Below are positions 1-6,209 of a stretch of DNA of 64,000 bases, one piece after another. Origin of the DNA: a phage; NCBI GenBank assembly GCA_033239445.1, contig GCA_033239445.1_3953.1. One strand, written 5' to 3'. The position numbers were made by a program, and so were the translations under genes. Numbering within the stretch: the first letter of the stretch is position 1; each line of letters starts with the position of its first letter. The notes beneath the pieces are model-generated. The model had not been told where the DNA came from and did no database searches. It saw only the letters and a list, made by a program, of their open reading frames with translations.

Positions 1-47
1 TTACGGTCTTCAGTTGACTCAAGCGGTCTTTCACTTGACCTCAAAAT

Positions 48-123
48 TGGTGCTCCCACAAGGATTCGAACCCTGATAAGTTGCTTACAAGGCAACCGTA
101 ATAGCCAATTATACGATAAGAGC
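48..123 (-). tRNA. tRNA-Thr (anticodon TGT)
   Basis: Minus-strand cloverleaf read by eye: CCA encoded (tgg 48-50), acceptor gctccca pairs with taagagc (two G:U), T-loop TTCGAAT, anticodon stem gttgc/gcaac with loop CTTGTAA. Confidence 0.8.
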
Positions 124-129
124 ATTGTT

Positions 130-204
130 TGGAGCATCCAGAGGGAATCGAACCCTCAACCTCAGTTTGGAAGACTGTAATTTTCCCGTTTAAACTATGG
201 ATGC
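130..204 (-). tRNA. tRNA-Gly (anticodon TCC)
   Basis: Minus strand; encoded CCA, acceptor gcatcca/tggatgc, T-loop TTCGATT, anticodon loop CTTCCAA, discriminator U. Confidence 0.8.
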
Positions 205-210
205 ACTAAT

Positions 211-286
211 TGGTGGAGAAGCAGGGAATTGAACCCTGTACTTAAGTTTGCAAAACTTACGTTTTAACCATGTAAACTACATCCCC
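211..286 (-). tRNA. tRNA-Ala (anticodon TGC)
   Basis: Minus strand; encoded CCA, T-stem caggg/ccctg, anticodon stem taagt/actta with loop TTTGCAA; acceptor stem carries a G3:U70 pair, the classical Ala identity element. Confidence 0.8.
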
Positions 287-292
287 ATTGTT

Positions 293-368
293 TGGTACAG
301 GTGGAGGGAATTGAACCCATCGTCTTACTGATTAAGAGTCAGCCGCATAACCATTTTGCTACACCTGC
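293..368 (-). tRNA. tRNA-Lys (anticodon CTT)
   Basis: Minus strand; encoded CCA, acceptor acaggtg/cacctgc, anticodon loop CTCTTAA; close paralog of the tRNA at 1747-1822. Confidence 0.7.
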
Positions 369-375
369 ATTAATT

Positions 376-452
376 TGGTACACCTAGAGAGATTCGAACT
401 CACACTGAGCAGATTCTAAGTCTGCTGCCTCTTCCAATTGGGCTATAGGTGC
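376..452 (-). tRNA. tRNA with anticodon TAG (Leu-type anticodon, class I fold with 5-nt variable loop)
   Basis: Minus strand; encoded CCA, U8-A9, D-stem GCC/GGC, anticodon stem GCAGA/TCTGC with loop CTTAGAA, variable region only 5 nt, discriminator A. Confidence 0.6.
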
Positions 453-705
453 ATTAAATCTTTGTAGAGAACTGCTAAGACGCCAAAGCAACAATGGTAT
501 CAAATGCCTTAACAATTCTCTAAAAAGACCTATTGGCCTCTGCATAGTCTTGCTTAATCCGGTGACTAGAACCTTTGGAGAGCTTGATATTATCTCTTCT
601 CCGTGACACCTACTAGGTGCTTTACCAGTGCCGTGTACGCCAATACACGAAGAGGAAACCTGAAACACTTGCTCGAACAGCGAGTCTCAGCTTTAAATCT
701 TATTA

Positions 706-795
706 GGCGGTAGATAAAGGAGTCGAACCCTCACCGTATTTCTACAATGGCAATAGTTTTCAAGACTATTTGGCTTCCATTAGCCGCTACCTACC
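706..795 (-). tRNA. tRNA-Ser (anticodon TGA), class II with long variable arm
   Basis: Minus strand; anticodon stem atagt/actat with loop CTTGAAA, long variable arm, T-loop TTCGACT, acceptor GGTAGGT/ATCTACC with one G:U, CC encoded. Confidence 0.7.
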
Positions 796-808
796 CCTAA
801 TAAGACTT

Positions 809-891
809 TGGCATGGGACGGAGGATTCGAACCCCTTTGAGTAAGTTTTGGAGGCTTACGCACATGCCTTAGTGTCTTAACATCGTCCCAT
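809..891 (-). tRNA. atypical tRNA-like gene, best read as tRNA-Trp (anticodon CCA) with enlarged D region
   Basis: Minus strand; perfect 7-bp acceptor atgggac/gtcccat with encoded CCA, T-loop TTCGAAT, anticodon-like loop CTCCAAA on a 4-bp stem, 5-nt variable loop; D region about 6 nt too long and position 8 is G. Confidence 0.45.
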
Positions 892-1056
892 ACTATATTT
901 CGAAGCTTACCCTGTTATCTCAACACTGTCAAGCTTCTTCTCAGATTATTTACATGTTCTGGAAAACATGAGATACAGACCACCTCCTTATGAGATTGAC
1001 TCTTTCAAGTCAATGCGGAGACCCATAAAGGTCGTCGTAGTAATCTGCTAACTATT

Positions 1057-1177
1057 TGGCAGTCAAGGTAGGAGTCGAACCTACTTACTATCGAAGGGAG
1101 CTACCCTTCAGCAACTTTCCGACTTTCGTTTATCTCTTAACGCGTATCTAAGATAACTTACTCGTGTTGTCTTGACC
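1057..1177 (-). ncRNA. 121-nt tRNA-like RNA (acceptor stem, T-arm and encoded CCA but no anticodon arm)
   Basis: tgg at 1057-1059, acceptor agtcaag pairs with cttgacc at 1171-1177, perfect T-arm gtagg/agtcgaa/cctac; interior holds hairpin gaaggg-agcta-cccttc and palindromic ttatct/agataa but no 5-7-5 anticodon arm. Confidence 0.45.
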
Positions 1178-1185
1178 ATTAAAAT

Positions 1186-1262
1186 TGGCACACCCTACAG
1201 GATTCGAACCTGTAACTGACGGTTTAGAAGACCGTTGCTCTATCCGTTTGAACTAAGGGTGC
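1186..1262 (-). tRNA. tRNA-Arg (anticodon TCT)
   Basis: Minus strand; encoded CCA, acceptor acaccct/agggtgc, T-stem acagg/cctgt, anticodon stem acggt/accgt with loop CTTCTAA. Confidence 0.8.
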
Positions 1263-1510
1263 ATTATCTTTAAAGGCTCTCTTAGAAAACCCTTAAAGAT
1301 GCCCACTTTATTAATCATACCGTGGGCTAGTACGCCAAATTCTTTAACAGGGAGTTGGAATACCCTGCTGGTGTTTAGCCTATTAAGCTACTGCCAGAAA
1401 AACATTATCGTTTGCATTTATTTTTAAGTTTTTAAAATAGACGCTACGCTAACGAAAACTAAGGTTATCTTAAAGTGGTCACATCTGAATGTCAACAACT
1501 TTATGAAATT

Positions 1511-1586
1511 TGGTACTGGTAGGTGGAATCGAACCACCGATATTCCCTTATCAGGGGAGTGTTATAACCTTCTTAACTATACCAGC
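1511..1586 (-). tRNA. tRNA-Ile (anticodon GAT)
   Basis: Minus strand; encoded CCA, acceptor actggta/taccagc, T-stem ggtgg/ccacc, anticodon loop CTGATAA. Confidence 0.8.
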
Positions 1587-1588
1587 AT

Positions 1589-1665
1589 TGGAGGTTCAGG
1601 TGGGAATCGAACCCACATTCATAGGGCTTATGAAACCCTTGCATTACCTTATCTGCGACTGAACC
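1589..1665 (-). tRNA. tRNA with anticodon CAT (elongator Met or Ile2-type)
   Basis: Minus strand; encoded CCA, perfect acceptor ggttcag/ctgaacc, anticodon stem agggc/accct with loop TTCATAA; fully paired 1:72 argues against an initiator. Confidence 0.75.
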
Positions 1666-1746
1666 ATTATAAGTTGCCCCTTTGTAGAGAACTGATTGAG
1701 TGGGTGTTTCCAGCCGCGCATGTGTTCTTCAGTTAAGGGGCGAATT

Positions 1747-1822
1747 TGGTAGAAGTGGAGGGATTCGAACCCGTCGCCTGTCAGATTAAAAGTCTGCCGC
1801 ATCACCATTCTGCTACACTTCC
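1747..1822 (-). tRNA. tRNA-Lys (anticodon TTT)
   Basis: Minus strand; encoded CCA, acceptor agaagtg/cacttcc, anticodon stem tcaga/tctgc with loop CTTTTAA. Confidence 0.75.
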
Positions 1823-2024
1823 ATTAAATCATCTTTGCAGTAACCTACGCAAACCTTGCTAAAGGGTTTGTAGAGTCATCTCTTATAAGCTAATCTAGAA
1901 TCATGCTCAAGAGACTCTTCGGCACTCATGGGACGACTGGTTAGCTCCATAAGTCACTGCAAAGAGGATTACCAGACCGTATTTATCTTAAGTGCTTCCA
2001 TTACACCAACACGCCGTAACGTGT

Positions 2025-2041
2025 GAAGGAATCGAACCTTC
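2025..2041 (-). other. orphan T-arm-like hairpin (gaagg-aatcgaa-ccttc) with no complete tRNA around it
   Basis: Perfect 5-bp stem and TTCGATT-type loop on the minus strand, but no matching acceptor or anticodon arm within 90 nt; flanked by spacer motifs A and B. Confidence 0.3.
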
Positions 2042-2077
2042 GCCTTTTCTTTACCAGAGAAATAGATTGTTTATTGT

Positions 2078-2118
2078 TTGCTGTAAACGGTCTTCTGTAA
2101 AATTGTTGGAACCAGACC
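2078..2118 (-). repeat. tRNA-cluster spacer motif A (TTGCTGTAAACGGTCTTCTGTAAA) followed by motif B (ACCAGACC)
   Basis: Motif A recurs at 2166-2185, 2622-2645 and 2785-2804; motif B recurs at 1971-1978, 2575-2582 and 2735-2742. Confidence 0.6.
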
Positions 2119-2165
2119 AAGTTTTAAATTTTTCAAATTAAATTGGCTTGAAATATTAAAATTGC

Positions 2166-2185
2166 TTGCTGTATTTGGTCTTCTG
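2166..2185 (-). repeat. tRNA-cluster spacer motif A copy
   Basis: ttgctgtatttggtcttctg; same core as the other three copies. Confidence 0.6.
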
Positions 2186-2246
2186 CTCCTTTAAAGAATA
2201 CTCGTAAGAACTCTTTAAGGGAGGGGCTAAAAAGCCCTCTCAAATT

Positions 2247-2323
2247 TGGCGGTTACGAAGGGATTCGAACCCTCATCATCCTCCGTGACAGGGAGGTATT
2301 TTGACCAGTTAAACTACATAACC
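2247..2323 (-). tRNA. tRNA-Asp (anticodon GTC)
   Basis: Minus strand; encoded CCA, acceptor ggttacg/cataacc, anticodon stem cctcc/ggagg with loop CTGTCAC. Confidence 0.8.
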
Positions 2324-2329
2324 TTTATT

Positions 2330-2417
2330 TGGTGCGCCGTGAAGGAGTCGAACCTCCCGAGTCATAATGACAAGTGATTTACAGTCACCACCGCTTCCAT
2401 CTACGGGATAACGACGC
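2330..2417 (-). tRNA. tRNA-Tyr (anticodon GTA), class II
   Basis: Minus strand; 88 nt with long variable arm, encoded CCA, acceptor gcgccgt/acgacgc, anticodon loop CTGTAAA. Confidence 0.75.
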
Positions 2418-2486
2418 ATTTTATTCTATTCAGGCTAAGGACTTGCACCTTACAAATCGGTGAGCAATCGCTTCTCTCCCAAATCT

Positions 2487-2563
2487 TGGCGGTTAGTCAG
2501 GGATTCGAACCCTGTACCATTCGGTTAACAGCCGACCGCACATGCCTTATGTGCTTCCTAACC
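2487..2563 (-). tRNA. tRNA-Asn (anticodon GTT)
   Basis: Minus strand; encoded CCA, perfect T-stem caggg/ccctg, anticodon stem tcgg/ccga with loop CTGTTAA. Confidence 0.75.
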
Positions 2564-2574
2564 ATGTTAGTATT

Positions 2575-2645
2575 ACCAGACCGTATCTTTTCATTTTTTG
2601 CCTATAAAAAATTTTAAGTGTTTGCTGTAAACGGCCTTCTGTAAA
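2575..2645 (-). repeat. spacer motif B (2575-2582) plus motif A (2622-2645) between tRNA-Asn and the CAT-anticodon tRNA
   Basis: On the minus strand motif B reads TGgTAATAC, an extended -10-like element ending about 6 nt before the tRNA-Asn 5-prime end. Confidence 0.5.
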
Positions 2646-2647
2646 TT

Positions 2648-2724
2648 TGGAGGCGGGTGTAGGAGTCGAACCTACCGATAACATGCTAATGAGACATGTG
2701 AGACACCCTTTCTCTATACCCGCA
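2648..2724 (-). tRNA. second tRNA with anticodon CAT, atypical
   Basis: Minus strand; encoded CCA, perfect T-arm gtagg/cctac, D-stem GAGA/TCTC, anticodon loop CTCATTA (pyrimidine at 37), apparent U1:C72 mismatch. Confidence 0.5.
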
Positions 2725-2734
2725 ATTCTTAATG

Positions 2735-2804
2735 ACCAGACCAAATCTTTTTTGGATTTCTATGCGCGAAATTGAAAAGTTTGTTTGCTGTAATTGGTCT
2801 TCTG
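2735..2804 (-). repeat. spacer motif B (2735-2742) plus motif A (2785-2804) between the CAT tRNA and tRNA-Glu
   Basis: Same A and B cores as the other copies. Confidence 0.5.
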
Positions 2805-2811
2805 TCAAAAC

Positions 2812-2889
2812 TGGCATTCCCGAAGGGACTTGAACCCTCAAACCACACCTTGAAAGGGTGTTGACTTTACCTAATTTGTCTACGGGAAT
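2812..2889 (-). tRNA. tRNA-Glu (anticodon TTC)
   Basis: Minus strand; encoded CCA, perfect acceptor attcccg/cgggaat, anticodon stem acacc/ggtgt with loop CTTTCAA. Confidence 0.8.
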
Positions 2890-2895
2890 ATAATT

Positions 2896-2975
2896 TGGTC
2901 TCCGTTGAAGGATTTGAACCTTCGACCCCTTGCTCCCAAAGCAAGTGCTGCTAAACCAAACTGAGCTAAACGGAG
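2896..2975 (-). tRNA. tRNA-Pro (anticodon TGG)
   Basis: Minus strand; encoded CCA, perfect acceptor ctccgtt/aacggag, anticodon stem cttgc/gcaag with loop TTTGGGA. Confidence 0.75.
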
Positions 2976-3098
2976 ATAATCTTTTTAACAACCTATGTAA
3001 CAACTATAACACTATTTTTTAGTGTCTGTCAAGAGGTTTTTTAAAATAATTTGATTTATTTCAGAAAACTTCTTTTTCGTTTCTATGTAGAACATATT

Positions 3099-3130
3099 AA
3101 AGGGTATTAAACACTTTGTCAATACCCTTT
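3099..3130. terminator. hairpin just downstream of the Ro60-like gene, possible bidirectional terminator
   Basis: Perfect 9-bp inverted repeat aagggtatt / aataccctt with 12-nt loop, T-rich flank on the plus side. Confidence 0.35.
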
Positions 3131-3140
3131 TTAAAACTTT

Positions 3141-4556
3141 TTACCAATCGTAGCGTTCAACCATTACTGCTTTGAGCATTACGCTGATAGGGTCAAACTT
3201 CTCACCACCAAGCAAAGCTTTTAAAGTGGCTGGAGAGAAACCAGATACCATCGCTACACCGTTATCCTTTACAGACACTTCGCAAGTACCGTTACGGTTT
3301 GCTAAGTACCAGAATACCAGTTGTGGCATCTCATATCCAGCTTTCTTGTACTTTTCTTGAATTGCTTCAAAGTTAGTACGACCATCTGCTCCATCAACCT
3401 GATTAAACTGCATATCAGAGAAGATGATAAGCTTACTAGGCATCTCTTTCTGAGTCAAGTTGTTTTTAACACCAATCTCAAGGATTCTTGCAAAAGCAGC
3501 TTGTAGGTCAGTTGAACCATACTCTACATGACTCTTCACTTGACGTAAGCGAGTCTGTAAATCACCACTCAATGTGATGAAGTGAGGTCTGCTAGAGTAA
3601 ACCATCAATTCATCTTTAAAGCAACCTGTATTACGTTCTGAAACGTACAGGGCTAAAGATACACCAATGTCTAGCGCTGTAACAGAACCATGTCGCTCCC
3701 AAGTCATAGATGAAGATACATCTGCCATGCACAGAATGTTCTCACCCTCTTTCATCCAGTTTGGTAAAGCTTTCCACTGCTCATTTGCAACGGTTGCATT
3801 ACCATAACCGACTGACTTTGTAATGTCATAAGGGTAGACTGCACCAGCATTAATCTTAGTCTCACCTTTAGTCAGTGCTGCAATGTATGCTGCATAACGC
3901 TCACCATCTTTACGACTGAAGAGTTTTTGATAACGTGCAGCAGCCAGTGAAGGAAGCTTGCTGTAATCAATCTCTCCGAACTCATTTGCTGAAATCTTTT
4001 GTTCAACAGTATCAGATAGTGCTGACAGAAGAACTCGATACTGCTTCTCTGAAAGATTTGCAAACTTACAGAAACGACGAACAAAACGCATGTGTCGTGA
4101 TTTTACTCGTGGTAACCATTTTGCTGCCAGAGCCGATGTTGCAGGGTCTAATAGTGCCGATTCTAAATGCTTGAAAGCATCTGTTTCGTAACGTGTACCA
4201 ACAAAGATTTTGAAGTCATCATAACGACCTAAATCAGAAATCTTGTCCATGATACGTAATACTTGAAACTCATCAAGAATCCCATCAGAGATTGCTTTAG
4301 TAAGAGTATAACGGAATGCTTTACGCTCACCCATACCTTCTCGTGCATCTCGCATATGTAACAGGATTCGAACTGCTACATCAATATCTTCTCGCATTGC
4401 CTTGTAAAACAAGTTTGGAAGAACTTCTACGTTTGTTCTGCTTGAACCAGCAGCTTTGTAGAAATCTACCAGTGCAGACATTGAAGAGGTGTGGTTAACA
4501 GCACCGTTTTCAGTTAAACCTGCATGTAAATGCGAGTGCTTAAATAATTCGCTCAT
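3141..4556 (-). CDS. rsr: Ro60/TROVE-family RNA-binding protein (Rsr-like) with C-terminal vWA domain
   Basis: 471 aa; MIDAS motif LCMADVSSSM, plus GSTDLQ and KLIIFSDMQF blocks, and upstream EGMGERKAFRYTLTKAI and YPYDITKSVGY, all matching remembered Ro60 landmarks (DVSxSM, GGTD, FTDNETF, HPFHIL). Confidence 0.7.
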   Translation of the reverse strand: MSELFKHSHLHAGLTENGAVNHTSSMSALVDFYKAAGSSRTNVEVLPNLFYKAMREDIDVAVRILLHMRDAREGMGERKAFRYTLTKAISDGILDEFQVLRIMDKISDLGRYDDFKIFVGTRYETDAFKHLESALLDPATSALAAKWLPRVKSRHMRFVRRFCKFANLSEKQYRVLLSALSDTVEQKISANEFGEIDYSKLPSLAAARYQKLFSRKDGERYAAYIAALTKGETKINAGAVYPYDITKSVGYGNATVANEQWKALPNWMKEGENILCMADVSSSMTWERHGSVTALDIGVSLALYVSERNTGCFKDELMVYSSRPHFITLSGDLQTRLRQVKSHVEYGSTDLQAAFARILEIGVKNNLTQKEMPSKLIIFSDMQFNQVDGADGRTNFEAIQEKYKKAGYEMPQLVFWYLANRNGTCEVSVKDNGVAMVSGFSPATLKALLGGEKFDPISVMLKAVMVERYDW

Positions 4557-4632
4557 ATTAATTCTCTCTCGTTAGAATGTTTTGGTGAGACAGACTCTAA
4601 CGTTTGATTTAGAACCTGTCAACACCTTTTTA

Positions 4633-5001
4633 TTATTTTTTCAGAGTTGCTACAGCAGAGAACGTTGGTTTGTTCTCCTGTGCTCCCTGATTCCCATTAT
4701 CTGTAGTCTTTTTGTCTACAGCGATGGCTTTCATCTCACCTGCTGAGTGAGTCATGATAACTTTACCAGCTTCCATCATTGACTTGACTTGGATATCTTT
4801 TTGAGTCAAACCAAATTCAGCAAGCTTTACAGGGTCTCTTGTAACAATGGCCTCAAACAGCTTTGCAGCATACTCTGCTGAGTTATCAATAGTCAACTGT
4901 GCCTTGACCAGTGAACTCTTGTTACGTGAGCCTTTGGGTCTACCTGATGGGTTACCAGATTGACCTTTCTTGAATTGGCCTTTGTTTGTTCGTTTCGTCA
5001 T
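4633..5001 (-). CDS. hypothetical basic protein with GNPSGRPKGSRNK motif
   Basis: 122 aa ORF; motif resembles the GNPxGRPKG signature seen in a family of small phage proteins. Confidence 0.5.
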   Translation of the reverse strand: MTKRTNKGQFKKGQSGNPSGRPKGSRNKSSLVKAQLTIDNSAEYAAKLFEAIVTRDPVKLAEFGLTQKDIQVKSMMEAGKVIMTHSAGEMKAIAVDKKTTDNGNQGAQENKPTFSAVATLKK

Positions 5002-5391
5002 TCTTCACCTCTTTTAAGAACTCTTAAAAGGCTTTTAAGATAAGAGATAGATATCCAGAAAGATATCTGTTTAAATAGCCTTTTTAGAAGAGTCTTTTAA
5101 GTAATCTTCTAAGTATTTATTAGGCTACACGTTGTCAAGAGGAATGTCAAGTAAATTTTTTAGTTGCAATACTTCTTGACTTGTTGTATGGATTACTGTA
5201 CCATCTTACTAAAGCTGTAGGTCTGCCTTTATCTACAAAGGAGACTTAATGAGAAACAATTCAAAATTGAAGACAGGTAATAATACCAATCACTGTAAGG
5301 AATCAAAGCGGGTAGAATTACTCTATTACAAATCCTCTGAAATTGGTTTGTACCTATACTTTCAAAATTATAGACGACAAGAGGATTATTT

Positions 5392-5625
5392 ATGTGTAGC
5401 TCCCAACTAGAAATCACAGATATTATTGATTTATACCAAACTGCAAAGAGTCATGGGTATATCACTTCAATTGGAAAGAATAAGCACTATGATGCACTAA
5501 CTGGTATGTATTTCAGAGCAATAGCTCAATCTAGTGAACAGGTTCTAATGGTTTCTTCCAGTGAATTTGCTTCATTTCTCTATTGCAGCAAGATTATCAA
5601 TCGTAGGAGAACTGATAAATGTTAA
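5392..5625 (+). CDS. hypothetical protein
   Basis: 77 aa ORF with SD aagagg upstream; first gene of the plus-strand block. Confidence 0.4.
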   Translation: MCSSQLEITDIIDLYQTAKSHGYITSIGKNKHYDALTGMYFRAIAQSSEQVLMVSSSEFASFLYCSKIINRRRTDKC

Positions 5626-6209
5626 ACGTGAGTTTTAATTATAATGGTGACGGGTCTGTATCAATCACTTCACCATATTCTGATGACCTTCTTAAAGAGT
5701 TGGTTAATCAATGTGAAAGAGGTATGCACTACGTACCTAATTCATTTAAACAGAAAACAATTGCAAATAACTTGATGCGTGTTACTGTTCAGTCAATGAA
5801 CCCAGATTATAACATTGATGGTGAAAGTCCATACTCACTTATGGCTTTAGGTGCTAATAGTGAATTTAAACTGGTGTGTCATGATTCAGAAACATTCTTC
5901 AAAGTATTCTCAAATCTTATCCACAATGCTAAATACAGTTATGTAGCTGGTTCAACATCATTCTCTCCAGCAAACTACACATGTGTTGTGATTGATAACC
6001 TCAGAGAGTCTGAAGATACTTCCACAGAGATTTCTTTCGATGTGAACACCTCTCCAGAGTCCACTCCAAGTAATGACTTTGACATGAACTATGCGTTATC
6101 TCTGAGTAAGAAATCTGATTTCATTGAATACGTCAATGGATTTGGATTTAAGTTGGATGAGACAATGAATCTCAAAAAACTTAAAAACATGCTTAAGACT
6201 ATGGCTTAA
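5619..6209 (+). CDS. hypothetical protein
   Basis: 196 aa ORF, followed by hairpin ggggc-gaaa-gcccc plus T-run. Confidence 0.55.
   Translation: MLNVSFNYNGDGSVSITSPYSDDLLKELVNQCERGMHYVPNSFKQKTIANNLMRVTVQSMNPDYNIDGESPYSLMALGANSEFKLVCHDSETFFKVFSNLIHNAKYSYVAGSTSFSPANYTCVVIDNLRESEDTSTEISFDVNTSPESTPSNDFDMNYALSLSKKSDFIEYVNGFGFKLDETMNLKKLKNMLKTMA

What the first reader, a model, noticed from the sequence alone, without database searches (positions are those of the whole stretch)
1057..1177. 121-nt tRNA-like element with acceptor stem, T-arm and encoded CCA but no anticodon arm
The two ends pair as a 7-bp acceptor helix (one G:U) followed by discriminator and CCA, with a canonical T-arm adjacent to the 3-prime acceptor strand. 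The roughly 85-nt interior has a 6-bp hairpin and a palindromic segment but no 5-7-5 anticodon stem-loop. It is too long for a tRNA and too short for a tmRNA; possibilities are a Y-RNA-like or tRNA-mimic RNA partnered with the nearby Ro60 gene, a tRNA with an insertion, or a decayed tRNA.
Basis: seen in the sequence. Interest (0 to 1): 0.7.

Follow-up and report, generated by a model that had tools for sequence, protein, structure and literature searches.

The report
Anticodon-disabled serine-tRNA-like phage RNA gene
A 121-base gene inside the tRNA cluster of a Felix-O1-like phage is a remodelled serine tRNA that keeps its amino-acid-accepting end, T arm and long extra arm but has lost a working anticodon arm and D arm, so it is probably cut out like a tRNA yet cannot read codons.

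Summary
The described features are all present on the minus strand at 1177->1057: a 7-bp acceptor helix with one G:U, discriminator G, encoded CCA and a canonical T arm. Standard detectors do not call it.

It is a real, maintained RNA. It occurs in 25 Mooglevirus/Suspvirus phage records and, diverged, in Yersinia phage P778. In both it lies directly 3' of tRNA-Arg(UCU). Nine base pairs show compensatory changes.

The "6-bp hairpin" (GAAGGG-UAGCU-CCCUUC) is not an oddity. Its tip GGGUAGCUCCC is the tip of the long variable arm of bona fide bacterial tRNA-Ser. It also recurs in 108 phage contigs, against 0 for a permuted control.

The element therefore keeps what seryl-tRNA synthetase reads: G2:C71, G73, a long extra arm and a T arm. 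Its anticodon arm is degenerate (nt 51-67, GGA but C33, 3 of 5 pairs). Its D arm is replaced by about 42 nt holding a covarying hairpin.

The neighbouring 471-aa protein does have a Ro60 fold. However, it is present in all relatives whether or not the element is, and Y-RNA features are absent.

Best reading: a tRNA-Ser-derived, non-decoding acceptor RNA whose function is unproven.

The parts
1057..1177 (-). The whole 121-nt tRNA-like gene (RNA nt i = window 1178-i)
   Evidence: Sequence. CM R1 scores 151 bits here and 135-151 bits in 10 relatives.
1171..1177 (-). Acceptor 5' strand GGUCAAG (nt 1-7)
   Evidence: Pairs 7 of 7 with nt 111-117. Covaries with P778 (GGUCUGU/GCAGACC): 3 pairs changed on both sides.
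1157..1170 (-). 5' linker ACAACACGAGUAAG (nt 8-21), first part of the insertion that replaces the D arm
   Evidence: 13 of 14 positions invariant in 10 Mooglevirus/Suspvirus sequences. No D stem can be drawn.
1130..1156 (-). Hairpin A (nt 22-48): 7-bp stem UUAUCUU/GAGAUAA with a 13-nt loop. Not a tRNA feature.
   Evidence: Compensatory changes U-A->C-G and U.G->G-C within Mooglevirus/Suspvirus. 4 pairs changed on both sides once P778 is included.
1111..1127 (-). 17-nt degenerate arm GAAAG-UCGGAAA-GUUGC (nt 51-67). Read here as an anticodon-arm relic with GGA (Ser) in the anticodon position, but with C33 and only 3 of 5 stem pairs. Relaxed ARAGORN drew it as a D arm.
   Evidence: Invariant in 10 sequences except G66A in two. 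ARAGORN -ps80 drawing. It lies 1 nt upstream of the variable-arm hairpin, as in class II tRNAs (inference). Not recognisable in P778.
1093..1109 (-). Hairpin B (nt 69-85) GAAGGG-UAGCU-CCCUUC, a tRNA-Ser-type long variable arm
   Evidence: Compensatory G-C<->U-A and A-U<->G-C/U-A changes. The tip GGGUAGCUCCC is identical in P778. It is also identical in the variable arms of ARAGORN-called tRNA-Ser(CGA) and tRNA-Ser(GCU) of bacteria. 108 phage stretches carry it next to a T arm, against 0 for a loop-permuted control.
1068..1084 (-). T arm GUAGG-UUCGACU-CCUAC (nt 94-110)
   Evidence: Canonical. Invariant apart from one T-loop G->A in Moogle and a U.G pair in P778.
1057..1067 (-). Acceptor 3' strand CUUGACU (nt 111-117), discriminator G118, encoded CCA (nt 119-121)
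   Evidence: G73 equivalent in 9 of 10 Mooglevirus/Suspvirus sequences and in P778. P778 has GUCU instead of GCCA.
1178..1185 (-). 8-nt A/U spacer AUUUUAAU between tRNA-Arg and the element. With the element it forms the 129-nt presence/absence unit bounded by TGCCA repeats.
   Evidence: Alignment A4 of phages with and without the element.
1186..1262 (-). tRNA-Arg(UCU), the conserved upstream neighbour and probable co-transcript
   Evidence: ARAGORN and Rfam. Same neighbour in P778.
1467..1495 (-). Sigma-70-like promoter match (TTGACA-17-TAAGAT) upstream of tRNA-Arg and the element
   Evidence: Consensus scan, 10 of 12 positions. No terminator-like site between it and the element. A consensus match only.

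Best explanation
The element is a gene derived from a class II (serine) tRNA. It retains the acceptor stem, discriminator G, CCA, T arm and the long variable arm. It has lost a usable anticodon arm, and about 42 nt of foreign structure (hairpin A) replace the D arm.

Inferred steps:
- It is transcribed with tRNA-Arg(UCU) as part of the phage tRNA operon.
- It is released by the host tRNA-processing enzymes. RNase P needs only the acceptor/T-arm stack plus RCCA.
- It accumulates as a ~121-nt RNA ending in CCA.
- It carries the features that bacterial seryl-tRNA synthetase uses: a long extra arm, G2:C71 and G73, with no need for an anticodon. It is therefore a plausible serine acceptor.
- It cannot decode, because position 33 is C, the stem has mismatches and there is no D arm.

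Its role would then be non-decoding. Candidates are a decoy or sponge for a factor that recognises tRNA-Ser by shape, such as SerRS or a tRNA-targeting host toxin, or an accessory acceptor RNA.

Shown: the anatomy, conservation, covariation, synteny, the variable-arm identity and the accessory (present/absent) distribution.
Inferred: transcription, processing, charging and function.
For: - Anatomy is confirmed.
- The RNA structure is maintained: 98% of cells paired, 9 pairs changed on both sides, 0 of 500 shuffles reach this, slid controls <=3.
- The P778 homologue sits at the same place, directly 3' of tRNA-Arg(UCU). It scores 27.8 bits, has a fully compensated acceptor stem and an identical GGGUAGCUCCC tip.
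- That hairpin is the variable-arm tip of ARAGORN-called tRNA-Ser(CGA) (Desulfurobacteriaceae) and tRNA-Ser(GCU) (Nostoc).
- 108 phage stretches carry it 4-30 nt before a T arm, against 0 for a permuted loop. 83 of the 108 close with a perfect 7-bp acceptor.
- The main 92-93-nt phage type has Ser anticodons (CGA, or GGA in L223) in a 5-7-5 arm, and an acceptor AGUCAGG/GGUCAGG close to GGUCAAG.
- The CM of that type scores the element at 30.9 bits, above every tRNA in the window (<=26.9).
- There are promoter-like sites upstream and no terminator in between.
- The indel is a clean 129-nt cassette bounded by TGCCA.
Against: - There is no expression, processing or charging data.
- G1.U72 replaces the G1-C72 that is conserved in bacterial tRNA-Ser, in all Mooglevirus/Suspvirus copies.
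- E. coli SerRS is reported to read the tertiary structure of tRNA-Ser. Without a D arm that structure is unlikely to be intact.
- The gap between the extra arm and the T stem is 8 nt (4 nt in P778), against 1-2 nt in normal tRNA-Ser.
- The anticodon-arm relic (nt 51-67) is my reading. ARAGORN drew it as a D arm, and it is not recognisable in P778.
- The thermodynamic signal is weak: z = -1.67, and the proposed fold is -27.4 against an MFE of -32.2 kcal/mol.
- The margin of the type-A model over ordinary tRNAs is only 4 bits, and P778 scores 14.8 bits.
- The covariation rests on two lineages, and alignment A6 was fitted to the model.
- The element is dispensable: it is absent from many close relatives.
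Confidence: 0.6

Rival explanations
1. A decaying tRNA gene (pseudogene). It would be a former tRNA-Ser that suffered an insertion and is drifting. It would persist only because phage tRNA arrays turn over slowly, or because the acceptor/T-arm module is still needed as an RNase P cleavage signal for the polycistronic transcript.
For: - Not called by standard tRNA detectors.
- Degenerate anticodon arm and no D arm.
- Absent from many sister phages as a clean deletion.
- Other gaps in the same array hold further degenerate tRNA-like pieces.
- About 11-12% divergence between the Mooglevirus and Suspvirus copies, similar by eye to the flanking spacer.
Against: - The acceptor stem is perfectly paired in both lineages although 4 of 7 pairs differ.
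- Hairpins A and B also change by compensation.
- The 11-nt variable-arm tip and the linker nt 49-63 are invariant.
- The CCA and T arm are intact.
- A pure cleavage-signal role would not constrain hairpins A and B.
Confidence: 0.25
2. A Y-RNA-like partner of the phage Ro60-like protein. In this reading the RNA binds the TROVE/vWA ring encoded about 2 kb upstream and tethers or gates it, as YrlA does for Rsr.
For: - The protein has a Ro60 fold.
- Bacterial and phage Y RNAs are tRNA-like and are encoded within 4 kb on the same strand as Ro60 (PMC4201824; PMC12135203).
- The element has CGAAAG in an invariant single-stranded stretch.
Against: - No YrlA hit at E<=10.
- The topology is the inverse of YrlA (free acceptor end against a closed one), and the motif is not near the 5' end.
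- The motif is absent from the P778 homologue.
- The Ro60-like gene is universal in the family whereas the element is sporadic.
- Only 1 of 131 hairpin-bearing loci has the protein nearby.
Confidence: 0.07
3. A still-functional decoding tRNA with an odd shape. Either Ser(GGA) read from nt 51-67, or Ala(AGC) read from hairpin B as relaxed ARAGORN suggests.
For: - ARAGORN at 80% threshold calls nt 43-121 tRNA-Ala(AGC).
- Similar GGG-UAGCU-CCC arms are called tRNA-Ala(AGC) at default settings in some metagenomic genes.
- GGA is a serine anticodon, and the phage has no tRNA-Ser(GGA).
Against: - For AGC: U at position 37. Positions 32 and 38 covary as Watson-Crick pairs (G-C <-> U-A), which gives a 5-nt loop. 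There is no G3:U70. The real 5' acceptor strand is 42 nt further upstream.
- For GGA: C at position 33 and only 3 of 5 stem pairs.
- No D arm in either case.
Confidence: 0.05

Closest known systems
Bacterial class II tRNA-Ser
   Same: 7-bp acceptor with G2:C71, discriminator G, CCA, canonical T arm and a long extra arm. The extra-arm tip GGGUAGCUCCC is identical to that of tRNA-Ser(CGA) and tRNA-Ser(GCU) found in bacterial genomes. It sits in a tRNA operon.
   Different: No D arm; about 42 nt with a foreign hairpin take its place. The anticodon arm is degenerate (C33, 3 of 5 pairs). G1.U72 replaces G1-C72. There are 8 nt between the extra arm and the T stem. It is 121 nt long against about 88-93 nt. 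tRNA detectors do not recognise it.
Phage T4 species 1 RNA (rnaC), a stable RNA of unknown function in the T4 tRNA cluster
   Same: It lies in a phage tRNA cluster downstream of tRNA-Arg(UCU). It has a canonical T arm next to a 7-position acceptor-like stem, with the interior made of non-tRNA hairpins. It is about 120-140 nt long and absent from Rfam.
   Different: No detectable homology: R1 gives no hit and R2 gives only 21 bits. The T4 stem has two U.U mismatches and no NCCA end. It has no GGGUAGCUCCC arm. That its function is unknown is stated from my own knowledge of the T4 literature, which I could not retrieve.
Bacterial and phage Y RNAs (YrlA, Yrl1/2)
   Same: tRNA-like module with a T arm. 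Encoded near, and on the same strand as, a Ro60-fold protein.
   Different: Y RNAs have a Ro-binding terminal stem with the GNCGAA motif, and the acceptor-equivalent is a closed stem-loop. Here the ends form a true acceptor stem with CCA. There is no YrlA model hit, and presence does not track the Ro60-like gene.
92-93-nt phage 'type A' tRNA-Ser-like genes found here in IMG/VR contigs
   Same: Acceptor (A/G)GUCAGG against GGUCAAG, the same GGG-UAGCU-CCC hairpin 4 nt before the T arm, no D stem, and sub-threshold for Rfam tRNA at 21 bits.
   Different: Type A keeps a clean 5-7-5 arm with CGA or GGA and has a 6-bp T stem. The element has hairpin A instead and is 28 nt longer. Model-based similarity is modest at 30.9 bits.
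tmRNA tRNA-like domain
   Same: Acceptor stem, T arm and CCA without an anticodon arm.
   Different: No G3:U70, no tag reading frame, no pseudoknots, and only a third of the length. There is no ARAGORN or Rfam tmRNA call on the element.

Membership tests
Canonical tRNA (Rfam RF00005 / ARAGORN) | Recognised by tRNA covariance or heuristic models as a full cloverleaf | tested here: not met
   No ARAGORN call in default or intron mode. No RF00005 match at E<=10 in a 3.5-kb search. Only a partial 'tRNA-Ala(agc)' for nt 43-121 at 80% threshold, using a 5 of 7 acceptor.
Canonical tRNA (Rfam RF00005 / ARAGORN) | D arm, and a 5-7-5 anticodon arm with U33 and a purine at 37 | tested here: not met
   No D stem after nt 7. 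Hairpin B has U at '37' and a covarying 32:38 pair. Nt 51-67 has C at '33' and 3 of 5 pairs.
tRNA-Ser (class II, bacterial) | Long variable (extra) arm between the anticodon arm and the T arm | tested here: met
   6-bp/5-nt hairpin at nt 69-85. Its tip is identical to the variable-arm tips of ARAGORN-called tRNA-Ser(CGA) and tRNA-Ser(GCU). The spacing to the T stem is longer than usual (8 nt).
tRNA-Ser (class II, bacterial) | Discriminator G73 and G2:C71 (C2:G71 is an antideterminant) | tested here: met
   G118 in 9 of 10 Mooglevirus/Suspvirus sequences and in P778. G2-C116 in all. Criteria from PMC9976931.
tRNA-Ser (class II, bacterial) | G1:C72 | tested here: inconclusive
   G.U in all Mooglevirus/Suspvirus copies, G-C in P778.
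tRNA-Ser (class II, bacterial) | Serine anticodon in a functional anticodon loop | tested here: not met
   GGA occupies the anticodon position of nt 51-67, but with C33 and a mismatched stem. It is not recognisable in P778.
tRNA-Ser (class II, bacterial) | Aminoacylation with serine by SerRS | not testable with these tools
   Needs an in vitro charging assay or an acid-gel Northern blot.
YrlA / bacterial Y RNA | Match to the YrlA covariance model (RF02553) | tested here: not met
   No hit at E<=10 on window 1-3500 or at E<=5 on 2900-5700. The model is in the library: it hits T4 di-tRNAs weakly.
YrlA / bacterial Y RNA | 5'/3' terminal stem carrying GNCGAAN0-1G near the 5' end (Ro-binding site) | tested here: not met
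   The terminal stem is a plain tRNA acceptor helix. The only CGAA-type motif (ACGAAAG, nt 49-55) is internal, lacks the first G and is absent in P778. Criteria.
YrlA / bacterial Y RNA | Encoded within about 4 kb of, and on the same strand as, a Ro60 orthologue | tested here: met
   The Ro60-fold ORF at 4556->3141 is about 2 kb upstream on the same strand.
YrlA / bacterial Y RNA | Co-occurrence with the Ro60 gene across genomes | tested here: not met
   The protein is in all 30 related loci. The element is in only 3 of the window-plus-IMG/VR loci searched and in 1 of 5 loci of the P778 clade. Only 1 of 131 hairpin loci has the protein.
YrlA / bacterial Y RNA | Binding to the Ro60 protein | not testable with these tools
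   Needs RNA immunoprecipitation or a gel-shift assay.
tmRNA | tRNA-Ala-like domain with G3:U70, a tag reading frame and pseudoknots | tested here: not met
   Position 3:70 is U-A or U.G. No tmRNA call by ARAGORN or Rfam on the element. The relaxed tmRNA mode gives only a spurious call on the opposite strand that overruns the ends of the 500-nt stretch.
Phage 'type A' GGGUAGCUCCC tRNA-Ser-like set (defined here) | Significant match to a covariance model built from 20 type-A sequences | tested here: inconclusive
   30.9 bits, against <=26.9 for ordinary tRNAs of the window. But the 5' strand is mis-placed in the alignment, and P778 scores only 14.8 bits.

The most novel reading that the evidence does not exclude
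Phages repeatedly evolve anticodon-disabled or D-armless derivatives of tRNA-Ser. These keep exactly the SerRS identity set: acceptor end, G73, long GGG-UAGCU-CCC extra arm and T arm. This element would be one such RNA. It would be matured and serylated in the infected cell but excluded from decoding. It would act as a shape decoy or sponge, for example against host toxins or defence nucleases that pick tRNA-Ser by its long arm, or to titrate SerRS. Alternatively it could act as a non-ribosomal seryl donor.
Probability: 0.2. Interest if true: 0.75.

Novelty: new variant of a known kind. Interest (0 to 1): 0.45.

Why it matters
Phage tRNA clusters are usually annotated only for what tRNA finders call, and the gaps are treated as spacer. 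This gap holds a maintained, tRNA-derived RNA that cannot decode. The same serine-type extra arm marks about a hundred other uncalled or mis-called tRNA-like genes in phage contigs.

If these RNAs are charged, they would be natural examples of acceptor RNAs uncoupled from the genetic code. That bears on phage counter-defence against tRNA-targeting immunity and on tRNA engineering.

The work also gives T4's long-unexplained species 1 RNA an architectural analogue in another phage family. And it shows that closeness to a Ro60-like gene is not enough to call a Y RNA.

Tried and rejected
- An anticodon arm CUUAG-AUACGCG-UUAAG (Arg ACG) inside hairpin A. Rejected because it does not hold in the Suspvirus sequences.
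- A helix extending hairpin B (nt 64-68/89-93). P778 does not support it.
- Pairing of nt 54-60 AGUCGGA with the whole T loop, as RNAalifold suggested. It cannot be tested, since the segment is invariant. The Moogle T-loop change breaks it. It is left open as a possible alternative conformer.
- Recent duplication of a phage tRNA. No close paralogue turned up among 50+ tRNAs of Mordin and P778.
- A host copy. No blastn match in 5,426 E. coli genomes.
- The 14-mer CGAAAGTCGGAAAG scan. Hits were mostly chance.
- The metagenome scan with TAGCTMCC...T arm. Hits were mostly ordinary tRNAs, with only one further true copy, L189.
- Homology to T4 rnaC or rnaD. Not detectable.
- Literature searches for DUF2828, T4 species 1 RNA and the hairpin sequence. 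Nothing relevant was found.
- Intron-containing tRNA. ARAGORN -i gave nothing credible.

Full report
**What the window is.** It comes from a Felix-O1-like myophage (Ounavirinae, Mooglevirus), about 98-99% identical to Shigella phage ESh20 and Citrobacter phage Mordin over the queried stretch. A tRNA array runs on the minus strand from 2975 to 48, with 16 ARAGORN calls. The finding lies in a 390-nt gap between tRNA-Arg(UCU) (1262->1186) and tRNA-Ser(UGA) (795->706).

**Check of the observation.** The minus strand 1177->1057 reads GGUCAAGACAACACGAGUAAGUUAUCUUAGAUACGCGUUAAGAGAUAAACGAAAGUCGGAAAGUUGCUGAAGGGUAGCUCCCUUCGAUAGUAAGUAGGUUCGACUCCUACCUUGACUGCCA.
- The ends form a 7-bp helix with one G.U, followed by G and CCA.
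- GUAGG-UUCGACU-CCUAC is a canonical T arm abutting the 3' strand.
- ARAGORN (default and intron modes) and Rfam 15 (gathering threshold, and E<=10 on 3.5 kb) give nothing for it.
- Folding energy alone is unremarkable (z = -1.67).

So the description is accurate.

**Is it real?** It is present at 89-99% identity in 25 GenBank phage records, all Mooglevirus or Suspvirus. On an alignment of ten of these, two internal hairpins show compensatory substitutions:
- Hairpin B GAAGGG-UAGCU-CCCUUC: G-C->U-A and A-U->G-C.
- Hairpin A UUAUCUU/GAGAUAA: U-A->C-G and U.G->G-C.

A covariance model (R1) found a diverged copy of 117 nt (27.8 bits) in Yersinia phage vB_YenM_P778. That phage's Ro60-like protein is only 52% identical. 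This copy also lies directly 3' of tRNA-Arg(UCU).

P778 differs in four of the seven acceptor pairs, yet all seven still pair (GGUCUGU/GCAGACC). It keeps the hairpin tip GGGUAGCUCCC and the T arm. It does not encode CCA.

With P778 included, 98% of cells pair and 9 pairs have changes on both sides. Shuffles give 4.1+-0.9 (0 of 500 reach the observed value), and slid controls give <=3. The caveats are that there are only two lineages and that the alignment was fitted to the model.

**Distribution.** Presence or absence is a clean 129-nt cassette: an 8-nt spacer plus the element, bounded by TGCCA, which is the 3' end of tRNA-Arg and also of the element. Many close relatives lack it, including Sf13, Sf14, Sf18, Silverhawkium and all Felixounavirus loci searched. 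So do four sisters of P778. It is therefore an accessory gene, as many phage tRNAs are.

**What the interior is.** ARAGORN at 80% threshold reads nt 43-121 as 'tRNA-Ala(AGC)', using hairpin B as a 5-7-5 arm and nt 51-67 as a D arm. That 5' strand pairs only 5 of 7, whereas nt 1-7 pair 7 of 7 and covary. The call is useful only as a sign that the 3' 70 nt have tRNA geometry.

The decisive clue came from the hairpin-B tip.
- The pattern GGGTAGCTCCC-N(4-30)-GGTTCRANTCC occurs in 108 stretches of IMG/VR contigs. A control with the loop permuted (GGGTCGATCCC) occurs in none.
- 83 of the 108 close with a perfect 7-bp acceptor.
- In bacterial genomes the same hairpin is the tip of the long variable arm of ARAGORN-called tRNA-Ser(CGA) (a Desulfurobacteriaceae MAG) and tRNA-Ser(GCU) (Nostoc).
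- The commonest phage form ('type A', 92-93 nt, about 47 contigs) has no D stem. It has a 5-7-5 arm whose loop is UUCGAGU (anticodon CGA) or, in L223, UUGGAUU (GGA). Both are serine anticodons. The hairpin follows, then 4 nt, then a T arm. Its acceptor AGUCAGG/GGUCAGG is close to this element's GGUCAAG.
- A second form (78 nt) is a tRNA(CAU) with this hairpin as an extra arm.
- A model built from type A (R2) scores the element at 30.9 bits, above all ordinary tRNAs of the window (<=26.9). The margin is small, and P778 scores only 14.8 bits.

I conclude that hairpin B is a serine-type variable arm. Nt 51-67 (GAAAG-UCGGAAA-GUUGC) are 17 nt long, lie one base upstream of it, and have GGA in the anticodon position. 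That stretch is most simply a degenerate anticodon arm, with C33 and 3 of 5 pairs. Nt 8-50, with hairpin A, replace the D arm. The last two assignments are inference.

**Mechanism.** A review of tRNA identity states several points (PMC9976931):
- G1-C72 and G2-C71 are conserved in bacterial tRNA-Ser.
- G73 is a determinant in vivo.
- E. coli SerRS reads the tertiary shape.

The element keeps the arm, G2:C71 and G73 (9 of 10 copies, plus P778). It has G1.U72 and no D arm.

From established knowledge, RNase P requires the acceptor/T-arm stack and RCCA. The element is therefore expected to be excised from the operon transcript. Promoter-like sites lie upstream at 1495->1467 and 3032->3003, and there is no terminator in between.

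Charging with serine is plausible but unproven. Decoding is very unlikely. A non-decoding role (decoy, sponge or acceptor) is the best guess. A relic kept partly as a processing signal is the main rival.

**The Ro60 idea.** The 471-aa ORF 4556->3141 (DUF2828+DUF7788, PHROG 'RNA-binding protein') models confidently (pLDDT 88.6). Its eleven best PDB matches are all Ro60/TROVE, including Thermus phage phiLo Ro60, over about 510-540 columns. So a Ro60-fold gene is indeed next to the array.

The element nevertheless fails the Y-RNA criteria drawn from PMC4201824 and PMC12135203:
- No YrlA model hit.
- No Ro-binding terminal stem or 5' GNCGAA motif.
- The internal CGAAAG is not conserved in P778.
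- The protein is universal in the family while the element is sporadic.
- Only 1 of 131 hairpin-bearing loci has the protein nearby.

**Closest known things.**
- By descent: class II tRNA-Ser.
- By architecture and genomic setting: T4 species 1 RNA (rnaC). Read here from NC_000866, it has a canonical T arm, a 7-position acceptor-like stem with two U.U, and non-tRNA hairpins. It lies downstream of tRNA-Arg(UCU). No homology is detectable. Neither T4 RNA is in Rfam.

**Verdict.** The element is a new variant of a known kind, a tRNA-Ser-derived, non-decoding tRNA-like gene. It belongs to a wider set of phage serine-tRNA-like genes that carry the same extra arm, which I found in neither Rfam nor the searched literature.

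Noticed in passing
window 809-893, minus strand: A second uncalled tRNA-like gene of about 84 nt: AUGGGAC...GUCCCAU-G-CCA, with T arm AGGGG-UUCGAAU-CCUCC. Its anticodon loop CUCCAAA (anticodon CCA, Trp) is flanked by a C.A mismatch (C.C in P778). The D region is expanded to 26 nt. It is conserved in all Felix-O1-like relatives, with compensatory anticodon-stem changes (UAAG/CUUA against ACGG/CCGU). ARAGORN calls it Trp only in mitochondrial mode. Trp is the amino acid missing from the annotated tRNA set, so this is probably a non-canonical tRNA-Trp.
   Followed up: partly
window 3141-4556, minus strand: A 471-aa DUF2828+DUF7788 protein is a Ro60 (TROVE + vWA) structural homologue: AF2 pLDDT 88.6, and the top 11 PDB hits are all Ro60. 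It is encoded immediately upstream of the tRNA array in all Felix-O1-like phages examined and in many other phages (2,440 database relatives). No Y-RNA candidate was found for it by Rfam.
   Followed up: partly
window 946-989, minus strand: The spacer is invariant across the aligned relatives (Mooglevirus, Suspvirus and two IMG/VR loci lacking the element). It holds AAGGAGG (989-983) followed by AUG UUU UCC AGA ACA UGU AAA UAA (969-946). This overlaps a 6-bp hairpin CAUGUU-UUCCAG-AACAUG. It could be a 7-codon mini-ORF or a structural signal inside the tRNA operon.
   Followed up: no
window 1263-1466, minus strand: A 200-nt leader lies between a promoter-like site and tRNA-Arg. It gives weak Rfam tmRNA-type hits (alpha_tmRNA 20 bits, tmRNA_permuted 30 bits). 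It contains a hairpin CAGGG-UAUUCCAACU-CCCUG that covaries with UGAGG/CCUCA in locus L163, plus a D-arm-like UAGC-UUAAUAG-GCUA. It may be another tRNA-derived relic.
   Followed up: no
window 2017-2091, minus strand: A sub-threshold tRNA match (28.8 bits against a cutoff of 29) with T arm GAAGG-UUCGAUU-CCUUC. ARAGORN does not call it, and it is unannotated in Mordin.
   Followed up: no
L198 9926-10018 and about 46 other IMG/VR contigs (e.g. L200, L205, L213; two copies in L223): A 92-93-nt 'type A' phage gene with acceptor, no D stem, a 5-7-5 arm with a Ser anticodon (CGA or GGA), the GGG-UAGCU-CCC hairpin and a 6-bp T stem. Rfam tRNA scores it at only 21 bits, and ARAGORN mis-calls it tRNA-Pro(UGG) or misses it. 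It is probably a D-armless phage tRNA-Ser.
   Followed up: partly
L181 1796-1867 and 1886-2129 (same contig as L169): A 72-nt tRNA-Ala-like gene (G3:U70, A73, normal D and T arms) has its anticodon arm replaced by GGG-UAGCU-CCC. It lies directly upstream of a permuted tmRNA (Rfam 58.7 bits) in a 50.6-kb phage contig.
   Followed up: no
L183 1530-1639, minus strand: A 110-nt tRNA-like gene downstream of a 9-tRNA array, on the same strand. It has acceptor GAGUGG/CCACUC, an internal T-arm-like hairpin, GGGG-UAGCU-CCCC, and then the true T arm. It was the best outside hit of the type-A model at 42.1 bits.
   Followed up: no
L012 (phage T4) 2909-3047, minus strand: T4 species 1 RNA (rnaC) folds far better than shuffles (z = -4.6). 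It has a canonical T arm CCGGG-UUCGAAU-CCCGG next to an acceptor-like stem CGAUUCG/CGUUUCG. Neither rnaC nor rnaD matches any Rfam family.
   Followed up: partly
L164-L168, just 3' of tRNA-Arg(UCU), e.g. L165 10017-10140: In the P778 clade a small conserved ORF (MDRK..KRFAICFPSG...) follows tRNA-Arg inside the tRNA array. In P778 the tRNA-like element is inserted between tRNA-Arg and this ORF.
   Followed up: no
64 Methanomassiliicoccales/Thermoplasmata genome contigs, e.g. L303 11542-11588: The same GGGGUAGCUCCCC hairpin lies 25 nt upstream of a T-arm-like GGGGGUUCAAAUCCCUC in a conserved archaeal locus. ARAGORN does not call it, and its nature is unknown.
   Followed up: no
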